From a virus (lineage: Duplodnaviria > Caudoviricetes), in the IMG/VR virus record IMGVR_UViG_3300030104_002647, positions 1,007-65,006 of that record: a stretch of 64,000 nt of DNA. The stretch is one strand, 5' to 3'. The notes under the pieces are model-generated. The model searched no databases, was not told the origin of the DNA, and was given only the letters and a program-made list of their open reading frames with translations. The position numbers and the translations under genes are program-made. This document shows, piece after piece, positions 3,917 to 11,377 of this stretch. The first letter of the stretch is position 1; each line of letters begins with the position of its first letter.

Positions 3917-4003
3917 ATCTTACTACGAATCCAAATGTAAATTAGGCACAAAATTGCACCCATGAAAGATACAAAGGTAGCAATATATTTGTCTCTCATT
4001 TTA

Positions 4004-4273
4004 TTACTCATTTCTTTCAAAGATTGTATGGTCTTCAATATTTCTTTCAACCCTAAGTTTTAGTGAGGTGAGAATCAAGTCCTCAATCTCATCATACTTC
4101 TTGTTAAAGAACTCCTGAGCTTCATCAGTATACTCGGTGCATATCACCTTGCCTGTTTCTAAATGCTTGACTTCTTTGATAGTGTTCATTCCAAATTTCA
4201 TAGTTGTAACTTCACATGCTAAGTCAGAAACTAATTCAATTAGTTTTTCGTTTTCAATAAATAATCTCATCAT
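4004..4273 (-). CDS. Hypothetical protein
   Basis: 89 aa ORF with AAATATTATG start context. Confidence 0.7.
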   Translation of the reverse strand: MMRLFIENEKLIELVSDLACEVTTMKFGMNTIKEVKHLETGKVICTEYTDEAQEFFNKKYDEIEDLILTSLKLRVERNIEDHTIFERNE

Positions 4274-4382
4274 AATATTTAAATTTAAATTAATAATAAT
4301 AGGCAGAGAGTAGGGCTACGTTAAACAACTGCGTGGGTTAGCTCTCTTTTAAAAGTTCCGCTCCTTTACTTACCTAAGTTTT

Positions 4383-4410
4383 TTGTAACACCTGTGTTAC
4401 AAGTGTTACA
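4383..4410. repeat. Inverted repeat TTGTAACAC-CT-GTGTTACAA plus extra GTGTTACA half-site
   Basis: Perfect 9-bp arms at 4383-4402, third half-site at 4403-4410. Confidence 0.7.
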
Positions 4411-4788
4411 TTAGTCAATCAGTTCTATATCTAATGTACTTATTTCATCCTCCTCACTATCCTCATCAACTAGCCATGCCGGAAGACTATCTCTCTCTTC
4501 ATACATGCCGTCTAATGTATAGCTAATTTGATTGTGTTCAATAAGGTCTTGAATAAATCTATTACCCCAATATTGAATGTCTTCGTGGTCGGAGAACATC
4601 CACTCTGCAAACCTTTTGCGAGTAATTGTGTATCTCTTTTTTGCATGTGATTTTGTTACATGCTCTTCCACTTGCTTTAAGTAATCTTCCCATGAATAAG
4701 GAACACCCTTAACACCGCCAACATCAGCGTTATATAATTCTCTGTGTCTCTTTTTTTGCTCGAGACCGAGCCATCTTTTTTCTCTCAT
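4411..4788 (-). CDS. Hypothetical protein
   Basis: 125 aa ORF with AAATATTATG start context and acidic tail. Confidence 0.7.
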   Translation of the reverse strand: MREKRWLGLEQKKRHRELYNADVGGVKGVPYSWEDYLKQVEEHVTKSHAKKRYTITRKRFAEWMFSDHEDIQYWGNRFIQDLIEHNQISYTLDGMYEERDSLPAWLVDEDSEEDEISTLDIELID

Positions 4789-4799
4789 AATATTTGGTT

Positions 4800-5357
4800 T
4801 TAATTAAAAACTGTTGTCATATAATTGTCAACTGCATTCCCTTCCCTACTATTAGTAATATAGCTTGGAACTGACGTATGGTAGGAGTATTTTGAAATCC
4901 TGTCTAATATCCCATCCAATTCGTTAAATACATTGTAAATTTTTAGAACAGTAATGCTCACATCTTTCCACTCTTTTTCATTACCACCTTTTTGTCGTGT
5001 GGTTTGTATGTGTGCAGTTATGATTCCGCAATCATTTACATCCTCACCGCTGAAACGAATCTTACCTTGCAGATATATTCCTTTGGGGGTGAGAAATTCT
5101 TTGACTATCAGCTCTAGCCAAGCGTAGTAGCCGTAGAACTTTTCTTGGTCTGTCCATTCTAGATAGTGTTCTCCTCCTACCTCGTATATGTTCCACTTCA
5201 GCCAAATACTTGGAGCGTCTTCTCTTCCGGTTGTATATTTGTCATCGTGAATTGTGTGTCTTGGCTCTAGCCAATTGTTGTGGTAGTCGATTAACTCGCT
5301 GTCTGTTAATTTTTTAGACAGTTTCATCCTACCGATAAACTCTGTTGTGTATCCCAT
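4800..5357 (-). CDS. Phage hypothetical protein (MGYTT.F.G type)
   Basis: MGYTTEFIG...EKFY.Y..WL...G.I...GED pattern recalled from phage early genes; AAACATTATG start context. Confidence 0.7.
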   Translation of the reverse strand: MGYTTEFIGRMKLSKKLTDSELIDYHNNWLEPRHTIHDDKYTTGREDAPSIWLKWNIYEVGGEHYLEWTDQEKFYGYYAWLELIVKEFLTPKGIYLQGKIRFSGEDVNDCGIITAHIQTTRQKGGNEKEWKDVSITVLKIYNVFNELDGILDRISKYSYHTSVPSYITNSREGNAVDNYMTTVFN

Positions 5358-5420
5358 AATGTTTGGATTTAATTAATATTTAATTTAGTGAACACTTTGA
5401 AATCTTGTTCAGGATTATAG

Positions 5421-5540
5421 AACGCAGACGAGGATTCGAACCTCATTTTATTAACCTAACGTCATGTGTCAAATTAGTAAGGTAGTTATGATTCTCCTTA
5501 CCTATAACCACTTCCGAGCACCATGCTATCATCTGCGTTT
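5421..5540 (-). ncRNA. tRNA-like structured RNA (acceptor stem + T-arm, non-canonical body)
   Basis: ACGCAGA/UCUGCGU acceptor-like stem directly after UGAGG-UUCGAAU-CCUCG T-arm. The interior of about 85 nt has extra helices. No encoded CCA. Confidence 0.7.
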
Positions 5541-5546
5541 CAATTG

Positions 5547-5578
5547 CAATATTACGAATTAATAATTTAATAAACAAA
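5547..5578 (-). promoter_or_regulatory. Putative promoter for the tRNA-like RNA
   Basis: TTTG-N20-TAATATTG (one mismatch to TAnnTTTG), ending about 6 nt before the RNA. Confidence 0.55.
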
Positions 5579-5596
5579 TTTTAGACGAACTATTTT

Positions 5597-6319
5597 TTAT
5601 TTCTCCGGTTTATAATTAGGATTTGGAGCGTTCTCAGTCGTTAAAACTTGTAACATTATTGCATCCATAAACTGCTCTAAAATGTACCCAAACTTGTCAT
5701 CAAAATTGTGGTCTTCTCGCCAATTGTGTAGCCACCTTTTAAAGTCATTAAGCACCTTATAATCAGTCATATATCTGCTTATCCAAGACAGCATTCTCTC
5801 ATAGTATTCAGTAACTACATACTCGTCATGGACGGTACAATTACCACCACAATAGGAGCAATCTTCTGCAATCTCATCATAATCTTGGTCATCATCATGC
5901 GAATTATAACATCTGCTAGACTCCCAACCACTTCCACCGCACTCACAACAATCCGTAAATCGTTCCTCAATCACATTGCAGTTTCCGTTGTTGAAGTAGT
6001 CGTAATAGAATCTATTAGCTACTCGAATCAGCTCACCATGAATGGTCTCAGCTTCCGCAGAAGATGGAACTAGCTTTTTATACAGCTCGTTATGTTCTTT
6101 TTGGTAAGCTCCTTCATCGTTCCAATACCTTTTGCCTAGCGGTGTTGATTTACCCTGATGCTCTGCTGTTTTTTCCATCCAAGCCATCCAATCGACTAAT
6201 ATTTTACGAGCATCGATTTTGCTCATACCGAATCTGCGTTGTAGGTAGGGGGTCGCACCTAGCATATTTGTCTCCCCTGACATCTGCAAATCGCAGAGGT
6301 AATTAAAATGTGTGTTCAT
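5597..6319 (-). CDS. Early protein with DnaJ-type CxxCxG zinc-finger insert
   Basis: CCECGGSG...CSYCGGNC motifs; appears to be a multi-domain fusion. Confidence 0.7.
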   Translation of the reverse strand: MNTHFNYLCDLQMSGETNMLGATPYLQRRFGMSKIDARKILVDWMAWMEKTAEHQGKSTPLGKRYWNDEGAYQKEHNELYKKLVPSSAEAETIHGELIRVANRFYYDYFNNGNCNVIEERFTDCCECGGSGWESSRCYNSHDDDQDYDEIAEDCSYCGGNCTVHDEYVVTEYYERMLSWISRYMTDYKVLNDFKRWLHNWREDHNFDDKFGYILEQFMDAIMLQVLTTENAPNPNYKPEK

Positions 6320-6345
6320 AATGTTTACATTTTTAATTAATAAAT

Positions 6346-6394
6346 CTGTTTCGACCTTTTGGTCTCATCAGCGATAGTACACACTACCGGACAG
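6346..6394 (-). ncRNA. Hammerhead ribozyme, type III (HHR1)
   Basis: CUGUC^CGGUAGU-GUGU-ACUAUCG-CUGAUGA-GACC-AAAA-GGUC-GAAA-CAG. Full core, predicted cut at 6390/6389. Confidence 0.93.
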
Positions 6395-6434
6395 GAGCAG
6401 TTTAAAATCATGCTCAGGATTACACTTACTGAAT

Positions 6435-6845
6435 CTACTCTACGCAGTAGCCATCTTCATCGACTTCTACGACAAAGTAATCTGAGTGATTATCGACTAG
6501 CTCCGCAAGGGTTTCATCATCAATATCATCAATCATATCATCGGATAAGATATCTGAAGATATGGAGGTGTTAAATAACATTCCATCTTCAAACATACTC
6601 TGAACCTCTGACATCATTTCATATTCATCGGTGAACAGCTCATCACAAGGGTAATACGCTCCTTTGTCTGCGTCTCTTCTATCGGTGATAATGTAGATAT
6701 CAAATCCATCTTTTGAAGTTTCACACAGAATGTGAATCTCTGTTGATTGGTGATAGGGGGTCTCGATTGAACTTCCAAATACATCTTTTAAAATGGTTTC
6801 AATTCCCATATCTCGAAGCTCTTGAATTTTTACTTTTTTTCTCAT
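6435..6845 (-). CDS. Acidic hypothetical protein
   Basis: 136 aa, D/E-rich. Confidence 0.75.
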   Translation of the reverse strand: MRKKVKIQELRDMGIETILKDVFGSSIETPYHQSTEIHILCETSKDGFDIYIITDRRDADKGAYYPCDELFTDEYEMMSEVQSMFEDGMLFNTSISSDILSDDMIDDIDDETLAELVDNHSDYFVVEVDEDGYCVE

Positions 6846-6846
6846 T

Positions 6847-7080
6847 TTAGTTTTGATTTAAATTAGACATTCTTTCTTTATGCTCTGCATACAATAGAGC
6901 GATTATAAGGCACGAACAAAATCCGTACAGGCATACACACGCAATCCAAACAATAACACCGGTAAAAGTGCTTATATCGGTTTTTAGAATGTGGATGAAT
7001 AAATTGCCTACCATAAAAATTATTGGTAAACTGACTAGAGCGTATATTAACGACTCTGAATAAATTAATAGTTTTTTCAT
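6847..7080 (-). CDS. Small two-TM membrane protein
   Basis: Two hydrophobic segments; AAACATTATG start context. Confidence 0.7.
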   Translation of the reverse strand: MKKLLIYSESLIYALVSLPIIFMVGNLFIHILKTDISTFTGVIVWIACVCLYGFCSCLIIALLYAEHKERMSNLNQN

Positions 7081-7105
7081 AATGTTTATTAATTAATTAT
7101 TATTT

Positions 7106-7154
7106 CTGTTTCGTTCTTTTGAACTCATCAGGTAAGGTACACACCTTACGACAG
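7106..7154 (-). ncRNA. Hammerhead ribozyme, type III (HHR2)
   Basis: CUGUC^GUAAGGU-GUGU-ACCUUAC-CUGAUGA-GUUC-AAAA-GAAC-GAAA-CAG. Predicted cut at 7150/7149. Confidence 0.95.
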
Positions 7155-7180
7155 GGGAGCGTTAGCTCCCTTTGTGTTAG

Positions 7181-7417
7181 TTAATTTATTTGTATTCTAC
7201 TTTGTAATATGTTGCGTTCTTCAATTGCTTTTTCAATCTCGTAATCCATTAAACCTTCTAATTGATTTAAGCTGTTATTTAACCTGTTAATATGTGCTAC
7301 ATTTGTGCATATATTTAAATGCCCATTAGCTATTAAAGTTTCATGTTGAAACACTTCTATTCCTCTGTTTTCGGAATCAATTTGTTCTGTAAAATACACT
7401 TCTAGATTATATCTCAT
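7181..7417 (-). CDS. Hypothetical protein
   Basis: 78 aa ORF in the early operon. Confidence 0.7.
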   Translation of the reverse strand: MRYNLEVYFTEQIDSENRGIEVFQHETLIANGHLNICTNVAHINRLNNSLNQLEGLMDYEIEKAIEERNILQSRIQIN

Positions 7418-7421
7418 AATT

Positions 7422-7712
7422 TTATTTATTTAAGTTAGTAAGTTTGTAAATGCCGTCTTTTATTTTCTCTCTAGTTTCTTCTATATATTCGCCTAGAAAA
7501 GCATTTCTATATTTCCCTGTTGTTCTTGAATAATCCCAATAATATTCATCTAATTCAATCGGTTTACTTCCGTTAGGAATAAAGGCAATTATCGAATTAT
7601 AGCTTTGAAAATAGCTACCCTTTTTAGTGTGAATTTTAAATTGATTTGCAACAGGGTTTCCTGAGTTGCTGTAAAAGTTTCGTACTCTGTAAAAATCTTT
7701 TAAATTTTTCAT
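7422..7712 (-). CDS. Phage early protein (FQSY.S.IA / YS.TT.K type)
   Basis: YFQSYNSIIAF...WDYSRTTGKYRN.FL motif recalled from phage early regions. Confidence 0.75.
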   Translation of the reverse strand: MKNLKDFYRVRNFYSNSGNPVANQFKIHTKKGSYFQSYNSIIAFIPNGSKPIELDEYYWDYSRTTGKYRNAFLGEYIEETREKIKDGIYKLTNLNK

Positions 7713-7723
7713 AATGTTTAGTT

Positions 7724-7918
7724 TTAGTTATTATATTCTTCGCAATTCTCATCTCGAAGCTCTTGTATTTCTTGCTCAATAAACGATTCTAATCTGCAAA
7801 CTAGCTCTTGTATATCGTTATCGTTTAATAATTCTTCAGATTCAATTTGTTCTGCCAAGTAGTTGTAAAAACCGCTTTCGTTTCCAAATTCTGAAATGTT
7901 TTGAATTAATTCTCTCAT
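7724..7918 (-). CDS. Small acidic hypothetical protein
   Basis: 64 aa, E-rich; AAACATTATG start context. Confidence 0.7.
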   Translation of the reverse strand: MRELIQNISEFGNESGFYNYLAEQIESEELLNDNDIQELVCRLESFIEQEIQELRDENCEEYNN

Positions 7919-7942
7919 AATGTTTGTTATTAAATTTATAAT

Positions 7943-7989
7943 CTGTTTCTGCTTTCGCTTCTTCAGGTAAGGCGCACACCTTACGACAG
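7943..7989 (-). ncRNA. Hammerhead ribozyme, type III, weak stem II variant (HHR3)
   Basis: CUGUC^GUAAGGU-GUGC-GCCUUAC-CUGAAGA-AGC-GAAA-GCA-GAAA-CAG. Predicted cut at 7985/7984. Confidence 0.8.
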
Positions 7990-8025
7990 GAGCAGTTTTT
8001 TCTCGACTTGCTCAGGTCGGTTCTG

Positions 8026-8088
8026 TTATACAAAGACAATCTCAAATTCTTGAGATATATCCTGTATTGCTATATCATATGCATTCAT
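8026..8088 (-). CDS. 20-aa micro-ORF MNAYDIAIQDISQEFEIVFV
   Basis: Same AAACATTATG start context as neighbouring genes; fills the gap before HHR3. Confidence 0.55.
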   Translation of the reverse strand: MNAYDIAIQDISQEFEIVFV

Positions 8089-8113
8089 AATGTTTAGTAT
8101 TAAATTAATATTT

Positions 8114-8722
8114 TTATTCACCGCCTGTTATCTCTTCTTCTCTGATGCGGTCTTCAATCTCTTCTTCGCTCATGTACTCATACAAGTAATGATTTATAAT
8201 CATTTCAGGACATTTGAACAGTTTCGCATCTGTGTAACCTCCTCTGACATCGCATCCGTTGTGTATCTGTAAGAGTAAATATTCTTCGCCGTTGATTGTC
8301 AACCATCCGCCCTGAAGGGTCTGCGATAGGTCAGAATCGCCGTTGTATGTGTTGAAGGTTCGACCCTCTTCAATCTCGTTGCCCTCTGTTAAATCGTTCC
8401 ACGCTTCGAGAGAAACTCCCCACGCTTCAGAATCGCCGTTCCAATCTGTTGCTCCTGATTGAATATCGTTAAAATTGTTGCAAATGTAATCTAGTTCTAA
8501 CGCTGAATCATCACCGGCTAAGAAGTGAAATACTGATACTTCTCTGTTAATCCATCCGTTTTCATCTGTTATGGTTTCCGGTTGGTCATTCTCGAAATCT
8601 GACTGACTGCGTTTTTGGTTTCGTTCCCAATGTCTACCGTAAGCACCGCCTGAATCTAGCATGTGCGAACCTGTTGACTCTGTTAACATTTCGTAAATTA
8701 ATTCTTTTAAATAAGTGTTCAT
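8114..8722 (-). CDS. First early gene, acidic hypothetical protein
   Basis: 202 aa with HMLDSGG.YGR.W and QIH.G.DVRGGYT motifs. Confidence 0.8.
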   Translation of the reverse strand: MNTYLKELIYEMLTESTGSHMLDSGGAYGRHWERNQKRSQSDFENDQPETITDENGWINREVSVFHFLAGDDSALELDYICNNFNDIQSGATDWNGDSEAWGVSLEAWNDLTEGNEIEEGRTFNTYNGDSDLSQTLQGGWLTINGEEYLLLQIHNGCDVRGGYTDAKLFKCPEMIINHYLYEYMSEEEIEDRIREEEITGGE

Positions 8723-8763
8723 TTTAAGTAAATTTTAGTGCCTTTCGGCTGTTAATAATACAG

Positions 8764-8771
8764 CAAAGATA
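8764..8771 (-). promoter_or_regulatory. Early promoter -7 element TATCTTTG
   Basis: TAnnTTTG about 40 nt upstream of the first leftward gene; GCC-GAAA-GGC hairpin in the leader. Confidence 0.7.
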
Positions 8772-8968
8772 TAAACTTTTTTTTAATTCTCGTATAATTT
8801 TAGTTTTTTTTTCGTTTAATTATTTTCTCTTTGTGTTGATAACTCTGTAACTTGCTGAGGTTCAACGCTTTACATGTTGATAATTCACGCAAATTTATTT
8901 AATCTTTTTTGATTGGGTTCGGTTGCTCTCTTTATTCTTTGTGTCTCTGTTCACAAAAATAAATATTT

Positions 8969-9172
8969 GGGGGAAGGTTTAGAGGTTATCCGGTGGGGGT
9001 GTGGGGTGTGTGTGGTGTGTGATGAGGGAAGGCAGGAAGGAGGGCAGGAGGTCGGGCAGGTAGCCGGACAAAATTTGTAAAAAATTAGACAGGAACGAGT
9101 CAAAACACTAAGGGGGGTCAAAAATAAATCTGACTTTTTTTTTGCGGCACACAAACGCATAACGGGGGGGAG
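8969..9172. other. G-rich non-coding island between divergent arms (candidate terminus/packaging region)
   Basis: GT-rich tract, GGCAGG x3 at 12-nt period, G6 and G7 runs in an AT-rich genome. Confidence 0.45.
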
Positions 9173-9228
9173 TCTAAACAGTACATATAACTAAATAAAA
9201 TTTTTGTATCTTTACAAAAAAAATTATT

Positions 9229-9465
9229 ATGGGCAAACCTTACAAACAATTACAAAAGGACGGAAAGATTTCCAACTTTGTAGACGGACTGTATATTCAG
9301 AACGGTAGAGAAATGAATGCAAGAGCAGATGGTATGACAGGTATTGCACGTGCTTCTATGTATAGACAACAAATGAAGAAGCAATATAAAATAGATTGTA
9401 TCGCTGATGGAATAGAGAGAGCTAAAATGAGAATGGATGGCGATAAAGATATATATGAGTTTTAG
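9229..9465 (+). CDS. Hypothetical protein
   Basis: 78 aa ORF preceded by TATCTTTA (9207-9214) and followed by a terminator. Confidence 0.75.
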   Translation: MGKPYKQLQKDGKISNFVDGLYIQNGREMNARADGMTGIARASMYRQQMKKQYKIDCIADGIERAKMRMDGDKDIYEF

Positions 9466-9491
9466 TTGATGATGAGTATGTGTGTTGATTG

Positions 9492-9522
9492 AAAGGGGGA
9501 TTCTAACGAATCCCTTTTTTTT
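9492..9522 (+). terminator. Intrinsic terminator
   Basis: GGGATTC-TAAC-GAATCCC followed by T8. Confidence 0.85.
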
Positions 9523-9523
9523 A

Positions 9524-9716
9524 TGTTGTAATTTAACAAAGTTGTGTTGATTTTGTGTTGATTTTAAAATTGATAATTAATTACAAATCAATAACTTATA
9601 AAAATAAATGTTGAAATGTTGATTTGAAAAAGGAACTGTAGTCAGAAAAAAACATATGCGTTAAATAAAAAGAGAGAGAGAGAGTAGACGACAATTAAAT
9701 TCAGCATTGCAGCATA
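9524..9716. repeat. TGTTGA iteron-like repeats with IHF-like site (candidate origin B)
   Basis: GTGTTGATTTT x2, AATCAATAACTTA (9586-9598), TGTTGAAATGTTGA, (GA)n tract, inverted CAGCAT copies. Confidence 0.5.
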
Positions 9717-9734
9717 AAGTATAAATAGTTTTTA

Positions 9735-9742
9735 TATCTTTG
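9735..9742 (+). promoter_or_regulatory. Promoter -7 element TATCTTTG
   Basis: TAnnTTTG 21 nt before groEL. Confidence 0.7.
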
Positions 9743-9763
9743 CCTAAATTAAATACACTTTAA

Positions 9764-11377
9764 ATGAATCCAATTAAAATGCCATCCGGCTTTAATCCAA
9801 AGGAATTATCTTTTGGAGATGAAGGGAGAAATAAACTTATCTCCGGTATTACCCAAATCGCAAATGCAGTAAAGAGCACTTTAGGTCCTAGAGGGAATAC
9901 AGTATTAATAGAATCACAATATGTAACGGGAGGATTAACTGTAACTAAAGACGGTGTAACCGTAGCTAAGGCAGTTGATTTACTCGACCCTGTAGAGAAC
10001 CTAGCGGTTCGTATGATGAAACAGGCGGCAGACAATACAGCATCCTCAGCAGGAGACGGAACAACTACAGCTATCGTATTGACTGAAGAGTTAGTGAAGC
10101 AGGGTAATGAATTAATGGATGATACCACAAACAGAGCTGAGGTTCTGCGTGAGATAGTGAGTGAGACTGAGAGAGTGATTGAGCGATTAAAGAAAGCATC
10201 AAAGAAGATTACAAATAAAAGACTGAAAGATGTTGCTGTTATCTCAGCAAACAATGACAAGGTTATAGGTAAAGTAATTGCAGATACATATAAGAAAGTA
10301 GGCAAGAACGGAATCGTTACTGTAGAAAAGTCAGAGTCTAGTGAAACATATAGTGAAACCACAAACGGTATTAAAATAGATAGAGGTTGGACTTCTCCTT
10401 TATTTGTAAACAATCAAAAGAAAGACGAGTCTATATTAGAAAATGTACATGTACTTGTAAGCGATGCTGAGATTAATAATGTATTGGCAATTGAAGGAAT
10501 ACTAAAACCAATTATCAACGAACAAAAGAAATTATTAATTATTGCACCAATGTCTGTTAATGTAGTAAACACTTTAGCTGCGAATGTAGTAAAGAATGGA
10601 TTACAGTTATGTGTGATAGGTCCTCCGCAGTTTGGATACAAACAACACGAGCTTATGCAAGACATAGCAGTTTCGGTGGGTGCGAAATACTTTTCAGAAA
10701 AAACAGGAGATGATTTATCATTAATAACATTTGCTGACTTAGGTCATGCTGATAAATGTATAGTAGGTCAAGAGTCTTCTATATTAATTAAATCATCCAC
10801 ACAAGAAACTGATGTTAGTGAACGAGTATCTCAACTATGGGATGCACACAAGATAACATCAAAGAAAGAAGATAAAGAGTTTATACTTTCAAGAATAGCA
10901 TCCCTTAGTGGTGGTATAGGTGTAATCTATGTTGGAGGACAAACTGATATTGAACAAAAAGAATTGTTCGATAGAGTAGATGATGCAGTATGTGCAGTTC
11001 GTTCCGCACTACAAGAAGGAATATTACCGGGAGGTGGAATAGCATTATATGATATTGCTGCAGCTCCAAGACAAGAGTCAGAAAAAAAATCCAAAAAAAT
11101 TGCTGACGCAATTTTGTATAATTCTCTAATAGCTCCTTTAGCACAAATTTTAAAAAATGCCGGACTAGACCCTGAAGAACTATATTGTTGTTCAAAAGAA
11201 GACGGAAAAGGATTTGATGTAAAGAATGAAAAATGGGGGAGTATGATTGATATGGGAATTATTGACCCAATGAAAGTAACTAAGAGTGCTTTACAAAATG
11301 CAGTTTCAGTAGCAGTAACAATATTATCAACCAATGCCATAATAACAATGGCACGAACATACGAACAGAAAGATTAA
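9764..11377 (+). CDS. groEL: Phage-encoded chaperonin GroEL
   Basis: STLGPRG, TKDGVTVA, AGDGTTTA, LSGG, EGILPGGG and GIIDP motifs. Confidence 0.97.
   Translation: MNPIKMPSGFNPKELSFGDEGRNKLISGITQIANAVKSTLGPRGNTVLIESQYVTGGLTVTKDGVTVAKAVDLLDPVENLAVRMMKQAADNTASSAGDGTTTAIVLTEELVKQGNELMDDTTNRAEVLREIVSETERVIERLKKASKKITNKRLKDVAVISANNDKVIGKVIADTYKKVGKNGIVTVEKSESSETYSETTNGIKIDRGWTSPLFVNNQKKDESILENVHVLVSDAEINNVLAIEGILKPIINEQKKLLIIAPMSVNVVNTLAANVVKNGLQLCVIGPPQFGYKQHELMQDIAVSVGAKYFSEKTGDDLSLITFADLGHADKCIVGQESSILIKSSTQETDVSERVSQLWDAHKITSKKEDKEFILSRIASLSGGIGVIYVGGQTDIEQKELFDRVDDAVCAVRSALQEGILPGGGIALYDIAAAPRQESEKKSKKIADAILYNSLIAPLAQILKNAGLDPEELYCCSKEDGKGFDVKNEKWGSMIDMGIIDPMKVTKSALQNAVSVAVTILSTNAIITMARTYEQKD

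What the first reader, a model, noticed from the sequence alone, without database searches (positions are those of the whole stretch)
6346..8013. Three intercistronic hammerhead ribozymes punctuate the early operon
Seen: three minus-strand elements with the complete hammerhead core (GUC^, CUGANGA, GAAA) in type III topology. Stems differ between copies but stay paired: stem I CGGUAGU/ACUAUCG vs GUAAGGU/ACCUUAC, stem II GACC/GGUC vs GUUC/GAAC. All lie in the coding orientation and end 26, 25 and 24 nt before the next ATG (6319, 7080, 7918). Known: intergenic hammerheads are reported from bacteria and phage, but their function is mostly unknown. Inference: a protein-free mRNA-processing system that cuts the early transcript into 5'-OH sub-messages, analogous to RNase III processing of T7 early RNA.
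Basis: partly seen in the sequence, partly recalled or inferred. Interest (0 to 1): 0.92.

Follow-up and report, generated by a model that had tools for sequence, protein, structure and literature searches.

The report
Three hammerhead ribozymes between phage genes
A 65-kb marine phage carries three self-cutting hammerhead RNA motifs between small co-oriented genes, each boxed in by a protective fold upstream and a fixed short leader downstream; they are very probably real, but clustered hammerheads in phage operons have been known since 2011 and cutting was not tested here.

Summary
Three minus-strand type III hammerheads lie at 6344-6397 (A), 7104-7157 (B) and 7941-7992 (C), with the predicted cut sites and 26/25/24-nt leaders exactly as stated. 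A and B are canonical. C has a complete core but an A10.1/A11.1 mismatch and a 2-bp stem II. Rfam RF00008 finds A and B below its gathering score and misses C. A model built only from 42 hammerheads of other phages scores all three at 50.6-73.7 bits. Across 45 distinct relatives stems I and II covary strongly, and positional counterparts of A and B exist in syntenic phages.

Each ribozyme sits in a module: stop codon, hairpin or small pseudoknot abutting the 4-bp stem III, ribozyme, about 23-nt leader, ATG. In a variant strain the repeated ribozyme/leader units border a two-gene insertion.

The most likely function is self-cleavage of a polycistronic transcript into separately protected messages. 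No RNA data exist for this. Perreault et al. (2011) already described clustered phage hammerheads and this idea, and the U-U mismatch and short stems II and III.

Earlier notes of this scan reported the hairpin-plus-hammerhead layout and the pseudoknot on other DNA. Verdict: a new member of a known kind, of moderate interest.

The parts
6344..6397 (-). Hammerhead A, type III, canonical core. It has GUC with the cut between 6390 and 6389, a 7-bp stem I with GUGU loop, a 4-bp stem II with AAAA loop, and a 4-bp stem III.
   Evidence: sequence. RF00008 33.4 bits. Leave-out model R2 67.1 bits. Identical in the variant strain L135, while the 712-nt aligned stretch is 94.2% identical. A positional counterpart with changed stems lies in L047.
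6395..6421 (-). Upstream pseudoknot-type element of A: AAU CCUGAGCA UG AUU ..AAAC UGCUC. Its last C is position 16.5, so it directly abuts stem III.
   Evidence: motif present 3 times in the window against 0.03 expected; gap 0 to stem III; motif widespread, and the P1 helix is supported in 66 of 92 distinct matches against 16 of 92 in a shifted control.
6320..6343 (-). AU-rich leader between hammerhead A and the ATG (6319) of the 240-aa gene. The leader ends in AAACAUU before the AUG.
7104..7157 (-). Hammerhead B, type III, canonical core. It has GUC with the cut between 7150 and 7149.
   Evidence: RF00008 36.4 bits. R2 73.7 bits. A positional counterpart lies at L054:8685-8738, upstream of the homologous 77-aa gene, with a GUA site, U10.1/U11.1 and different stems.
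7155..7170 (-). Upstream hairpin of B, GGGAGC-UAAC-GCUCCC. Its last C is position 16.5.
   Evidence: MFE fold; z -4.52 for the 81-nt stretch. (-10.5 kcal/mol, gap 0).
7081..7103 (-). AU-rich leader between hammerhead B and the ATG (7080) of the 77-aa gene, whose product looks like a membrane protein by eye.
7941..7992 (-). Hammerhead C, type III variant. It has core CUGAAGA, a GUC site with the cut between 7985 and 7984, an A10.1/A11.1 mismatch, and a stem II of 2 G-C pairs with a GAAA loop.
   Evidence: Not reported by RF00008 at E<=10. R2 50.6 bits. The same A-A plus 2-bp stem II design recurs at L058:2274-2325 of another, 68-kb phage, with one compensatory pair change in stem I.
7990..8019 (-). 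Upstream pseudoknot-type element of C: CGA CCUGAGCA AG UCG ..AAAAC UGCUC. It abuts stem III.
7919..7940 (-). AU-rich leader between hammerhead C and the ATG (7918) of the 64-aa gene. In variant strains 7722-7927 is absent, and the same 24-nt spacing then leads to the 96-aa gene.
   Evidence: (a joint 7721/7928 in contigs of runs X13 and X16).
5390..5416 (-). Third copy of the pseudoknot motif (CCUGAACA..UGUUC, with a G-C to A-U change in the second helix). It has no hammerhead and lies between a tRNA-like element and the leader of the 185-aa gene.

Best explanation
The three elements are cis-acting type III hammerhead ribozymes. They are transcribed as part of a long leftward message that carries more than 20 small co-oriented genes of a marine, probably Bacteroidota-infecting, tailed phage.

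Each belongs to a fixed module: stop codon, a hairpin or small H-type pseudoknot whose last base abuts the 4-bp stem III, the ribozyme, a 24-26-nt AU-rich leader, then ATG.

Self-cleavage after C17 would split the transcript into two kinds of product:
- The upstream piece would end in a stable fold plus CCUGUC with a 2',3'-cyclic phosphate. This is a poor substrate for 3'-5' exonucleases.
- The downstream piece would begin with a 5'-OH followed by the two ribozyme hairpins and an unstructured ribosome-landing leader.

Gene blocks could then differ in stability and translation. The abutting fold probably also stacks on the short stem III and insulates the ribozyme from upstream coding sequence. 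A and B should be fast. C, and the U-U variants in relatives, are probably slower, tuned versions.

Shown: sequence, structure, covariation, position, and conservation in relatives. Inferred: cleavage itself, the single transcript, and the effects on stability and translation.
For: - Core and topology are complete in all three copies.
- RF00008 matches A and B over the full model length. Leave-out model R2 gives 73.7, 67.1 and 50.6 bits.
- In 45 distinct family members, 93.8% of cells are paired against 69.4% in shuffles and 31-45% when the partner is slid. All 7 stem I pairs and 3 of 4 stem II pairs show changes on both sides.
- Positional counterparts of A (L047) and B (L054) sit before homologous genes with different stems, cleavage triplet and stem III pair.
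- The C design recurs in L058 with a compensatory change.
- Pseudoknot A plus hammerhead A (78 nt) show no change in strain L135, whose aligned 712 nt are 94.2% identical.
- Module evidence: in 39 of 45 cases the upstream fold ends at position 16.5 or 16.6. Mean MFE is -11.8 against -5.0 kcal/mol for control windows, Wilcoxon p 1.4e-8.
- In 40 of 45 cases an ATG-ORF of at least 40 aa starts within 45 nt, median 23.5 nt. In 44 of 45 an upstream frame stops within 150 nt, median 30 nt before position 16.5.
- All three are on the coding strand, and no minus-strand terminator-like site lies in 4000-9800.
- Tandem phage hammerheads have been shown to cleave in vitro and in vivo, and the U-U mismatch, 2-bp stem II and weak stem III are reported as compatible with activity (PMC3088659, passages).
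Against: - No RNA evidence: none of the 23 listed runs is RNA, so cleavage, co-transcription and timing are untested.
- None of the three reaches Rfam's gathering score, and C is not detected by RF00008 at all.
- The thermodynamic MFE of each element forms stems I and II but not stem III. It pairs the core CUG with CAG instead. Two of the three fold z-scores are modest (-1.43, -2.27).
- C has an A-A mismatch at the most conserved stem II pair. The paper states only that U-U is the best-tolerated mismatch.
- The family alignment was seeded with a pattern taken from the window's own core and stem III. Stem III conservation is therefore partly imposed, and related sequences inflate shuffle statistics.
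- Relatives carry 0 to 2 copies: MW202828.1 has none, G001 two. The elements are therefore dispensable for this phage type.
- The hairpin stabilisation idea rests on general knowledge of exonuclease requirements, not on any test.
Confidence: 0.7

Rival explanations
1. Translation switch. The main purpose of the cut is to create a new 5' end at a fixed distance (about 75 nt, with about 24 nt unstructured) from the start codon. An internal cistron without a Shine-Dalgarno sequence would then be initiated efficiently only after cleavage. Stability effects would be secondary.
For: - The spacing from ribozyme to ATG is very narrow: median 23.5 nt, IQR 21.25-26, with 40 of 45 within 45 nt.
- The window's leaders are AU-rich, lack AGGAG and share AAACAUUAUG.
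- In RNA viruses of fungi and plants, ribozyme self-cleavage was reported as essential for cap-independent translation (PMC13725137, abstract only).
Against: - Family members with clear AGGAGG sites before the ATG have the same layout (L007, L043), so it is not tied to SD-less hosts.
- In cellular (mostly CPR) genomes the same ribozyme subtype lies at a broad distance from the next start: median 41 nt, IQR 28-73, for the 31 of 38 with a start within 150 nt.
- A minimal leader length is expected in compact genomes anyway.
- No bacterial precedent was found in my searches.
Confidence: 0.12
2. Recombination joints or selfish cassettes. The repeated fold-ribozyme-leader units persist mainly because they act as homologous crossover sites that move small early genes in and out, like the PeSL cassettes of T4-type phages. 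RNA cleavage would be incidental or only mildly useful.
For: - Strain L135 has hammerhead A, then two extra small ORFs, then a second hammerhead (GUA, U-U) before the 240-aa gene. The window aligns to both flanks with an overlap at 6316-6371, which is the ribozyme 3' half plus leader.
- Contigs of two runs lack exactly 7722-7927, the 64-aa gene, with the joint inside the shared leader.
- Copy number varies from 0 to 3 among relatives.
- Ribozymes at homologous positions are not homologous in sequence.
- PeSL precedent: PMC2839356 (title and start of abstract from the listing).
Against: - Strong compensatory covariation in stems I and II and an invariant catalytic core across 45 members show selection on the RNA fold, which a DNA-level role alone does not need.
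- One of the two indels uses the leader, not the ribozyme, as its joint.
- Two events are anecdotes, not a rate.
Confidence: 0.08
3. Inactive relics or chance motifs. Some or all copies, especially C, no longer cleave.
For: - All copies are below Rfam's gathering score.
- C has A10.1/A11.1 and a 2-bp stem II.
- Stem III is 4 bp and is not formed in the MFE.
- Perreault et al. found no activity for some predicted ribozymes with disruptive mutations (passage).
Against: - The full core is intact in all three copies.
- The C design is kept in another phage with a compensatory change.
- The leave-out model gives E-values of 7.6e-12 or better.
- Chance expectation is met by one hit in 354 kb of related phage DNA.
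Confidence: 0.05
4. Circular RNA production. Pieces between two ribozymes (835 nt from C to B, 760 nt from B to A) are excised and ligated into circles, as in viroid-like RNAs and retrozymes.
For: - All three copies share the same stem III strands (CUGU/ACAG), so the 3' end of one excised piece could dock on the ribozyme body at its own 5' end.
- Perreault et al. raised this possibility.
Against: - Docking would rest on 4 bp only.
- Within other phages, successive ribozymes have non-matching stem III (CUGU and CCGU in L005 and L019).
- Perreault et al. looked for circular or spliced products and detected none.
- The pieces carry ordinary protein genes.
Confidence: 0.03

Closest known systems
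Clustered cis hammerheads flanking genes in prophages and phages (Perreault et al. 2011, PMC3088659; passages read)
   Same: Several same-strand hammerheads lie between single genes or short gene blocks of unknown function in phage DNA. The proposed role is processing of a long transcript. Natural U10.1-U11.1, 2-bp stem II and weak stem III variants occur.
   Different: The examples named in the passages I read are prophages of Clostridium, Azorhizobium and Agrobacterium. This is a free marine phage genome. Those passages do not mention the abutting upstream hairpin or pseudoknot, the fixed leader of about 23 nt, or an A-A mismatch.
Rfam RF00008, Hammerhead_3 (type III hammerheads of viroids, satellites, retrozymes)
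   Same: The core, the three-helix junction with open stem III, and closed stems I and II are the same. There is a full-length alignment to the model for A and B.
   Different: Scores of 33-36 bits are below the 48.5-bit cut-off (short stem III, longer stem I, short loop 2). C is not matched. The context is a DNA phage mRNA, not a rolling-circle replicon.
RNase III processing sites of the phage T7 early transcript (recalled from general knowledge, not from a call)
   Same: An intercistronic cut in an early polycistronic RNA leaves the upstream message ending in a hairpin.
   Different: The cut here would be made by the RNA itself, and the products carry 5'-OH and 2',3'-cyclic phosphate ends.
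PeSL promoter/stem-loop cassettes of T4-type phages (PMC2839356 and PMC4122927; listing and start of abstracts only)
   Same: Repeated regulatory cassettes lie between small variable early genes and mark insertion, deletion and replacement borders.
   Different: PeSLs are promoter plus terminator-like stem-loop. Here the unit is fold, ribozyme and leader, and no promoter has been shown. Only two indel events were seen.
Widespread phage 'gene-end' H-type pseudoknot noted earlier in this scan, compared there with the coremin / xrRNA-C motif (Dilweg et al. 2019, PMC6546385; passages read)
   Same: The elements upstream of A and C carry the same conserved words (CCUGAGCA .. AAACUGCUC) with a covarying 3-6-bp first helix. 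They lie at gene ends and are often 5-14 nt before tRNA genes.
   Different: Coremin as described in the paper is two hairpins (the first with a YGAD loop) separated by a conserved 10-nt spacer. I could not map the phage motif onto that layout. No resistance to any nuclease has been shown for the phage motif.
Ribozyme-dependent translation initiation in RNA viruses (PMC13725137; abstract)
   Same: A self-cleaving ribozyme lies just upstream of an ORF and is conserved in position.
   Different: That system is eukaryotic and cap-independent. Nothing comparable has been shown in bacteria.

Membership tests
Hammerhead ribozyme (core definition as used by Perreault et al. 2011: C3 U4 G5 A6 N7 G8 A9, G12 A13 A14, A15.1-U16.1, H17) | All conserved core nucleotides are present in the right order | tested here: met
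   A and B have CUGAUGA, C has CUGAAGA. All have GAAA followed by C, and GUC at the cleavage site.
Hammerhead ribozyme | Three helices around the core, supported by covariation | tested here: met
   stem I is 98.7% paired, with 7 of 7 pairs showing double changes. Stem II is 90.4% paired, 3 of 4 pairs. Stem III has 3 invariant pairs and 2 with double changes; its sequence was partly fixed by the search pattern.
Hammerhead ribozyme | Standard pair at 10.1-11.1 next to the core (a mismatch there was a rejection criterion in Perreault et al.) | tested here: inconclusive
   Met in A and B (G-C), not met in C (A-A). In the family: G-C 36, U-U 7, A-A 2 of 45. The paper reports natural active U-U variants but not A-A.
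Hammerhead type III (Rfam RF00008) | Stem III open, stems I and II closed by loops | tested here: met
   (alignment to the model structure).
Hammerhead type III (Rfam RF00008) | Score at or above the curated gathering cut-off (48.5 bits) | tested here: not met
   no match at gathering; 36.4 and 33.4 bits, with C absent. The shortfall comes from the helices, not the core (alignment).
Hammerhead ribozyme | Site-specific self-cleavage giving 5'-OH and 2',3'-cyclic phosphate ends | not testable with these tools
   No RNA run holds the stretch. Only DNA contigs could be laid.
Hammerhead ribozyme | Loop-loop or pseudoknot tertiary contact between stems I and II, needed for fast cleavage at cellular Mg2+ | tested here: inconclusive
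   Loop sequences are conserved: loop 2 is AAAA in 24 of 45, and loop 1 is GUGU or GAGU in 26 of 45. This suggests a contact. No 3D or mutational test was possible.
Clustered phage hammerheads (Perreault et al. 2011) | Two or more hammerheads in one orientation flanking genes in phage DNA | tested here: met
   There are three in 1.7 kb on the coding strand of a virus record that CheckV rates 100% complete. Other loci also carry three (L005, L019, L024).
Coremin / xrRNA-C | 3-4-bp hairpin with YGAD loop, conserved 10-nt spacer, second hairpin | tested here: not met
   This was a comparison by eye of the motif with the description in PMC6546385. The phage element folds as one 3-bp helix with a 10-nt loop that pairs downstream. 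Only a short UUAAAC-like word is shared; the coremin sequence is recalled, not from a call.
PeSL-type mobile regulatory cassette | Early promoter within the cassette | tested here: inconclusive
   The sigma-70-type scan is not above shuffles (28 against 23.3 +/- 4.1). Bacteroidota-type promoters are not covered by the tool.

The most novel reading that the evidence does not exclude
The fold-hammerhead-leader unit is a portable 'RNA punctuation cassette' with three proposed jobs:
- The cut leaves the upstream message capped by a hairpin or a conserved H-type pseudoknot, only 5-8 nt from a cyclic-phosphate end. This would make a termination-free, nuclease-proof 3' end.
- It gives the next cistron a defined 5' end and a leader of about 24 nt that its translation depends on.
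- The repeated unit is the crossover site by which marine phages swap small early genes.

The same pseudoknot placed 5-14 nt before tRNA genes would do the first job at RNase P cuts. The tRNA-like element at 5421-5538 would be a fourth, protein-dependent punctuation mark of the same operon.
Probability: 0.25. Interest if true: 0.7.

Novelty: new member of a known kind. Interest (0 to 1): 0.45.

Why it matters
What bacterial and phage hammerheads are for is still open: a 2019 review (PMC6765202, passages) says more work is needed to define the purpose of these ribozymes. This locus does not answer that, but it offers a compact test case of 1.9 kb. It holds two canonical ribozymes and one weakened one, two kinds of upstream fold (plain hairpin and pseudoknot), fixed leaders, and natural strains that differ by whole gene cassettes at the module borders. 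The module statistics turn the vague idea of 'mRNA processing' into specific predictions that can be tested. They predict 3'-end protection by the abutting fold, a role for the leader length, and graded cleavage rates through the 10.1-11.1 pair.

Tried and rejected
RNA evidence: the look-up of sequencing runs listed 23 runs, and no RNA holder was listed. Read laying could therefore show only DNA contigs. Its list of other letters was cut at 7133, so I could not see whether the A-to-U change at 7133 (stem I of B) is compensated at 7148.

Relatives through the 136-aa protein: none in IMG/VR.

Other ribozyme classes in the window: none at E<=1 in Rfam.

Trans-acting or split hammerheads (a lead from earlier scan notes): no further CUGUC-plus-stem-I half sites exist beyond the three complete ribozymes. 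Type III topology does not suit trans cleavage either.

Association of the ribozymes with the widespread 96-aa gene family: rejected. Only 1 of 71 loci with that gene has a hammerhead.

Hairpins as intrinsic terminators: rejected. They are followed by CCUGUC, not a U run, and the scan flags no minus-strand terminator in 4000-9800.

Pfam and PHROGs give no function for the flanking proteins. Three of 10 hit unknown-function PHROGs, and there were no Pfam hits except a sub-threshold one.

Literature: searches found no paper on an upstream hairpin or pseudoknot abutting phage hammerheads. The supplementary figures of PMC3088659 (Figures S1-S8) may show such features.

Rows left out:
- Duplicate cores and loci that overlap other loci (L001, L002, L016, L039, L049, L050, L052, L053) were dropped before building A2.
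- L055:4665 and L047 were added from my structure-based scan or from synteny, not from the pattern.
- In one search, matches with less than 40 nt upstream were skipped.
- In one search, my strict rule counted 0 of 97 pseudoknot matches as followed by a hammerhead, though by eye L139 has one 8 nt downstream.
Full report
WHAT IS THERE. The window is 64,000 of the 65,006 bases of a virus record that CheckV rates as complete. From about 9160 down to 1, more than 20 small ORFs run on the minus strand with tiny gaps. Plus-strand genes, including a Cpn60-type chaperonin, start at 9764.
- A (6344-6397): CCUGUC^CGGUAGU-GUGU-ACUAUCG CUGAUGA GACC-AAAA-GGUC GAAACAG
- B (7104-7157): CCUGUC^GUAAGGU-GUGU-ACCUUAC CUGAUGA GUUC-AAAA-GAAC GAAACAG
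- C (7941-7992): CCUGUC^GUAAGGU-GUGC-GCCUUAC CUGAAGA AGC-GAAA-GCA GAAACAG

Its core is complete, but 10.1/11.1 is A-A and stem II has only two pairs. Stem III is 4 bp in all three.

IS IT MORE THAN CHANCE. Rfam at gathering thresholds reports nothing in the window. With E-value thresholds, RF00008 (type III hammerhead) aligns end to end with B (36.4 bits) and A (33.4 bits). The E-values are 3.7e-4 and 2.5e-3 for the whole window. C is not listed, and no other ribozyme family appears.

A scan of my own that demands the core plus pairing in three stems finds only these three sites on either strand.

A covariance model built from 42 hammerheads of other contigs, with no window sequence, scores B at 73.7, A at 67.1 and C at 50.6 bits. 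The next hit scores 15.2 bits.

As a background rate, 71 loci (354,285 bases) of marine phages, collected through an unrelated 96-aa gene, contain one such ribozyme.

Thermodynamic folding alone forms stems I and II but not the short stem III. This is usual for hammerheads and is a weakness of that test, not of the motif.

COMPARATIVE EVIDENCE. A pattern made of the stem III strands and core found 44 stretches in IMG/VR. After removing duplicates and adding neighbours, 45 distinct ribozymes were aligned. Results for the hammerhead structure:
- 93.8% of cells pair, against 69.4% in column shuffles and 31-45% when partners are slid.
- All seven stem I pairs and three of four stem II pairs show changes on both sides.
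- Stem III was partly fixed by the search pattern and says little.
- The 10.1-11.1 pair is G-C in 36, U-U in 7 (all seven with A17) and A-A in 2.

Syntenic phages carry ribozymes at the same positions but with different sequences. L047 encodes a 240-aa protein 75% identical to the window's. It has a GUA/U-U ribozyme with a CCGU/ACGG stem III at the place of A. L054 has a GUA/U-U ribozyme before the homologue of the 77-aa gene, at the place of B.

The unusual design of C (A-A plus two G-C pairs) recurs in L058 of a complete 68-kb phage, with one compensatory pair change in stem I.

In the variant strain L135, pseudoknot A and ribozyme A (78 nt) are unchanged, while the aligned 712 nt are 94.2% identical. 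The TARA contig L134 is 99.84% identical to the window. It differs in A only at position 16.5, outside stem III and the core.

Copy number among relatives is 0 (MW202828.1), 1 (G002, G006) or 2 (G001, G003). The elements are therefore accessory.

THE MODULE. In 39 of 45 cases the best fold of the 40 nt upstream ends at position 16.5 or 16.6, directly against stem III. Mean energy is -11.8 kcal/mol, against -5.0 for control windows further upstream (Wilcoxon p 1.4e-8). In 31 of 45 the energy is -8 or lower, and six cases lack an abutting fold.

Downstream, 40 of 45 have an ATG-ORF of at least 40 aa beginning within 45 nt of G15.4 (median 23.5, IQR 21.25-26). Upstream, a long open frame stops a median of 30 nt before position 16.5 in 44 of 45.

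In the bacterial and archaeal genome collection, the same pattern hits 39 stretches. Most are Saccharibacteria and other Patescibacteria, with a few Bacteroidota and Chloroflexota. Of 38 distinct sites, 26 have a fold ending within 0-2 nt, but the distance to the next start is broad, with a median of 41 nt. The fold-plus-ribozyme pairing is therefore general. The tight coupling to the next start is a feature of the phage loci.

TWO KINDS OF UPSTREAM FOLD. B has a plain G-C-rich hairpin. A and C have a weak 5-bp hairpin with conserved sequence, CCUGAGCA..AAACUGCUC.

This word pair occurs three times in the window (expected 0.03). The third copy (5390-5413) has no ribozyme and carries a G-C to A-U change in the helix.

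In IMG/VR the motif hit more than 119 stretches before the scan stopped. Many such matches are expected by chance at this pattern length. However, in 66 of 92 distinct matches the three or more bases before the motif pair with the bases two positions after CCUGAGCA. In a shifted control this holds for 16 of 92. The pairing makes an H-type pseudoknot.

Ten of those 66 have a tRNA gene starting 5-34 nt downstream, seven of them tRNA-Asp. Others are followed by a ribosome site and ATG.

Earlier notes of this scan describe the same pseudoknot and compare it with the plant-virus coremin element. From the passages of PMC6546385 that I read, I could not map it onto the coremin layout.

HOW IT MOST LIKELY WORKS. 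The ribozymes would cut the nascent or finished polycistronic RNA after C17. The upstream product would end in a hairpin or pseudoknot followed by 5-8 nt and a cyclic phosphate. The downstream product would start with a 5'-OH, the stem I and stem II hairpins, and a free leader of about 24 nt.

From general knowledge, 3'-5' exonucleases need a single-stranded tail to engage, and 5' structure and a 5'-OH slow 5'-end-dependent decay. The cut would therefore yield separately stabilised messages. This is an RNA-only counterpart of RNase III processing of T7 early RNA (recalled).

The abutting fold could also stack on the 4-bp stem III and shield the ribozyme from upstream sequence.

The steps from 'is a hammerhead' onward are inferred. 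No RNA run holds this DNA. There is no minus-strand terminator-like site in 4000-9800, which fits read-through transcription but is weak evidence.

CASSETTE BORDERS. Strain L135 has ribozyme A, two extra small ORFs, then a second ribozyme before the 240-aa gene. The window aligns to both flanks with an overlap at 6316-6371. Contigs of two runs from different studies lack exactly 7722-7927, the 64-aa gene. The joint lies in the shared leader, which preserves the 24-nt spacing. These two events suggest that the repeated units are crossover sites, as proposed for the PeSL cassettes of T4-type phages (PMC2839356, listing only). Two events do not make a rule.

WHAT IS KNOWN. Perreault et al. 2011 (PMC3088659; passages) report several relevant points:
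- Multiple hammerheads flank single genes or short blocks in prophages.
- They propose processing into gene-length mRNAs.
- They show cleavage for three tandem arrangements in vitro, and for the Agrobacterium triple arrangement in E. coli.
- They note U10.1-U11.1, 2-bp stem II and weak stem III variants.
- They place a halovirus hammerhead 13 nt before an early helicase gene.

A 2019 review (PMC6765202) still calls the purpose undefined. My three literature searches found no description of the abutting fold or the fixed leader. The supplements were closed, so I do not claim these are unpublished. Earlier notes of this scan had already seen hairpin-plus-hammerhead layouts in CPR bacteria and phages, and the pseudoknot before tRNAs. 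My searches confirm these layouts on my own data.

VERDICT. This is a new member of a known kind, with a clearly defined module that makes the open question of function testable. Interest is 0.45.

Noticed in passing
window 5421-5538 (-): A tRNA-like element with a 7-bp acceptor stem and a GGUUCGAAUCC T arm, but about 80 nt where the D and anticodon arms should be. RF00005 gives 18.1 bits (E 0.26) and ARAGORN finds nothing. It fills another large gap of the same operon and is followed by the pseudoknot motif and a leader. It could be an RNase P/Z-type punctuation mark. By eye, L047 (about 180-300) shows a similar T arm.
   Followed up: partly
window 5390-5416, 6395-6421, 7990-8019 (-); IMG/VR loci L136-L215: A small H-type pseudoknot motif (N3 CCUGAGCA WG N3' ..AAAC UGCUC). 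It is widespread in phage contigs, often 5-14 nt before tRNA genes (7 of 10 are tRNA-Asp) or shortly before gene starts. It is not matched by any Rfam family in the window.
   Followed up: partly
window 7722-7927; L135:712-1207: Strain-level gene cassette differences. The 64-aa gene is absent in contigs of two runs. A two-ORF insertion sits between two hammerheads in a metagenome contig.
   Followed up: partly
window 9764-11377 (+): The phage encodes a 537-aa Cpn60/TCP-1 family chaperonin (PF00118, E 1.1e-54).
   Followed up: no
window 8960-9100 (-): A pyrimidine- and C-rich low-complexity tract (CCUGCC, CACAC and CCCAC runs) in an otherwise AT-rich genome. It lies just upstream of the first clear gene of the leftward block. 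The 69-aa ORF called there looks spurious.
   Followed up: no
window 4273-4411 (-): A 138-nt gap with two possible folds (GUAACAC..GUGUUAC, and AGAGAG..CUCUCU enclosing about 30 nt) before the next leader. There was no Rfam match at E<=1.
   Followed up: no
alignment A2 (45 ribozymes): All 7 ribozymes with U10.1-U11.1 have A at position 17 (a GUA site), while 33 of 36 with G-C have C17. This may reflect shared descent of a subfamily or a functional link.
   Followed up: no
genome-collection loci L255-L293: The same hammerhead subtype (CCUGUC..CUGAUGAG..CGAAACAG) is most common in Saccharibacteria and other Patescibacteria genomes. There it is often followed by a GUUCUUU-like word. One Dehalococcoidia contig carries three copies.
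   Followed up: partly
window 8026-8088 (-): A 20-codon mini-ORF with the standard AAACAUUAUG leader lies between the 202-aa gene and pseudoknot C.
   Followed up: no
window 9491-9520: A 13-bp hairpin flanked by an A run and a T run (a bidirectional terminator-like site) lies between the small plus-strand ORF 9229-9465 and the chaperonin gene.
   Followed up: no
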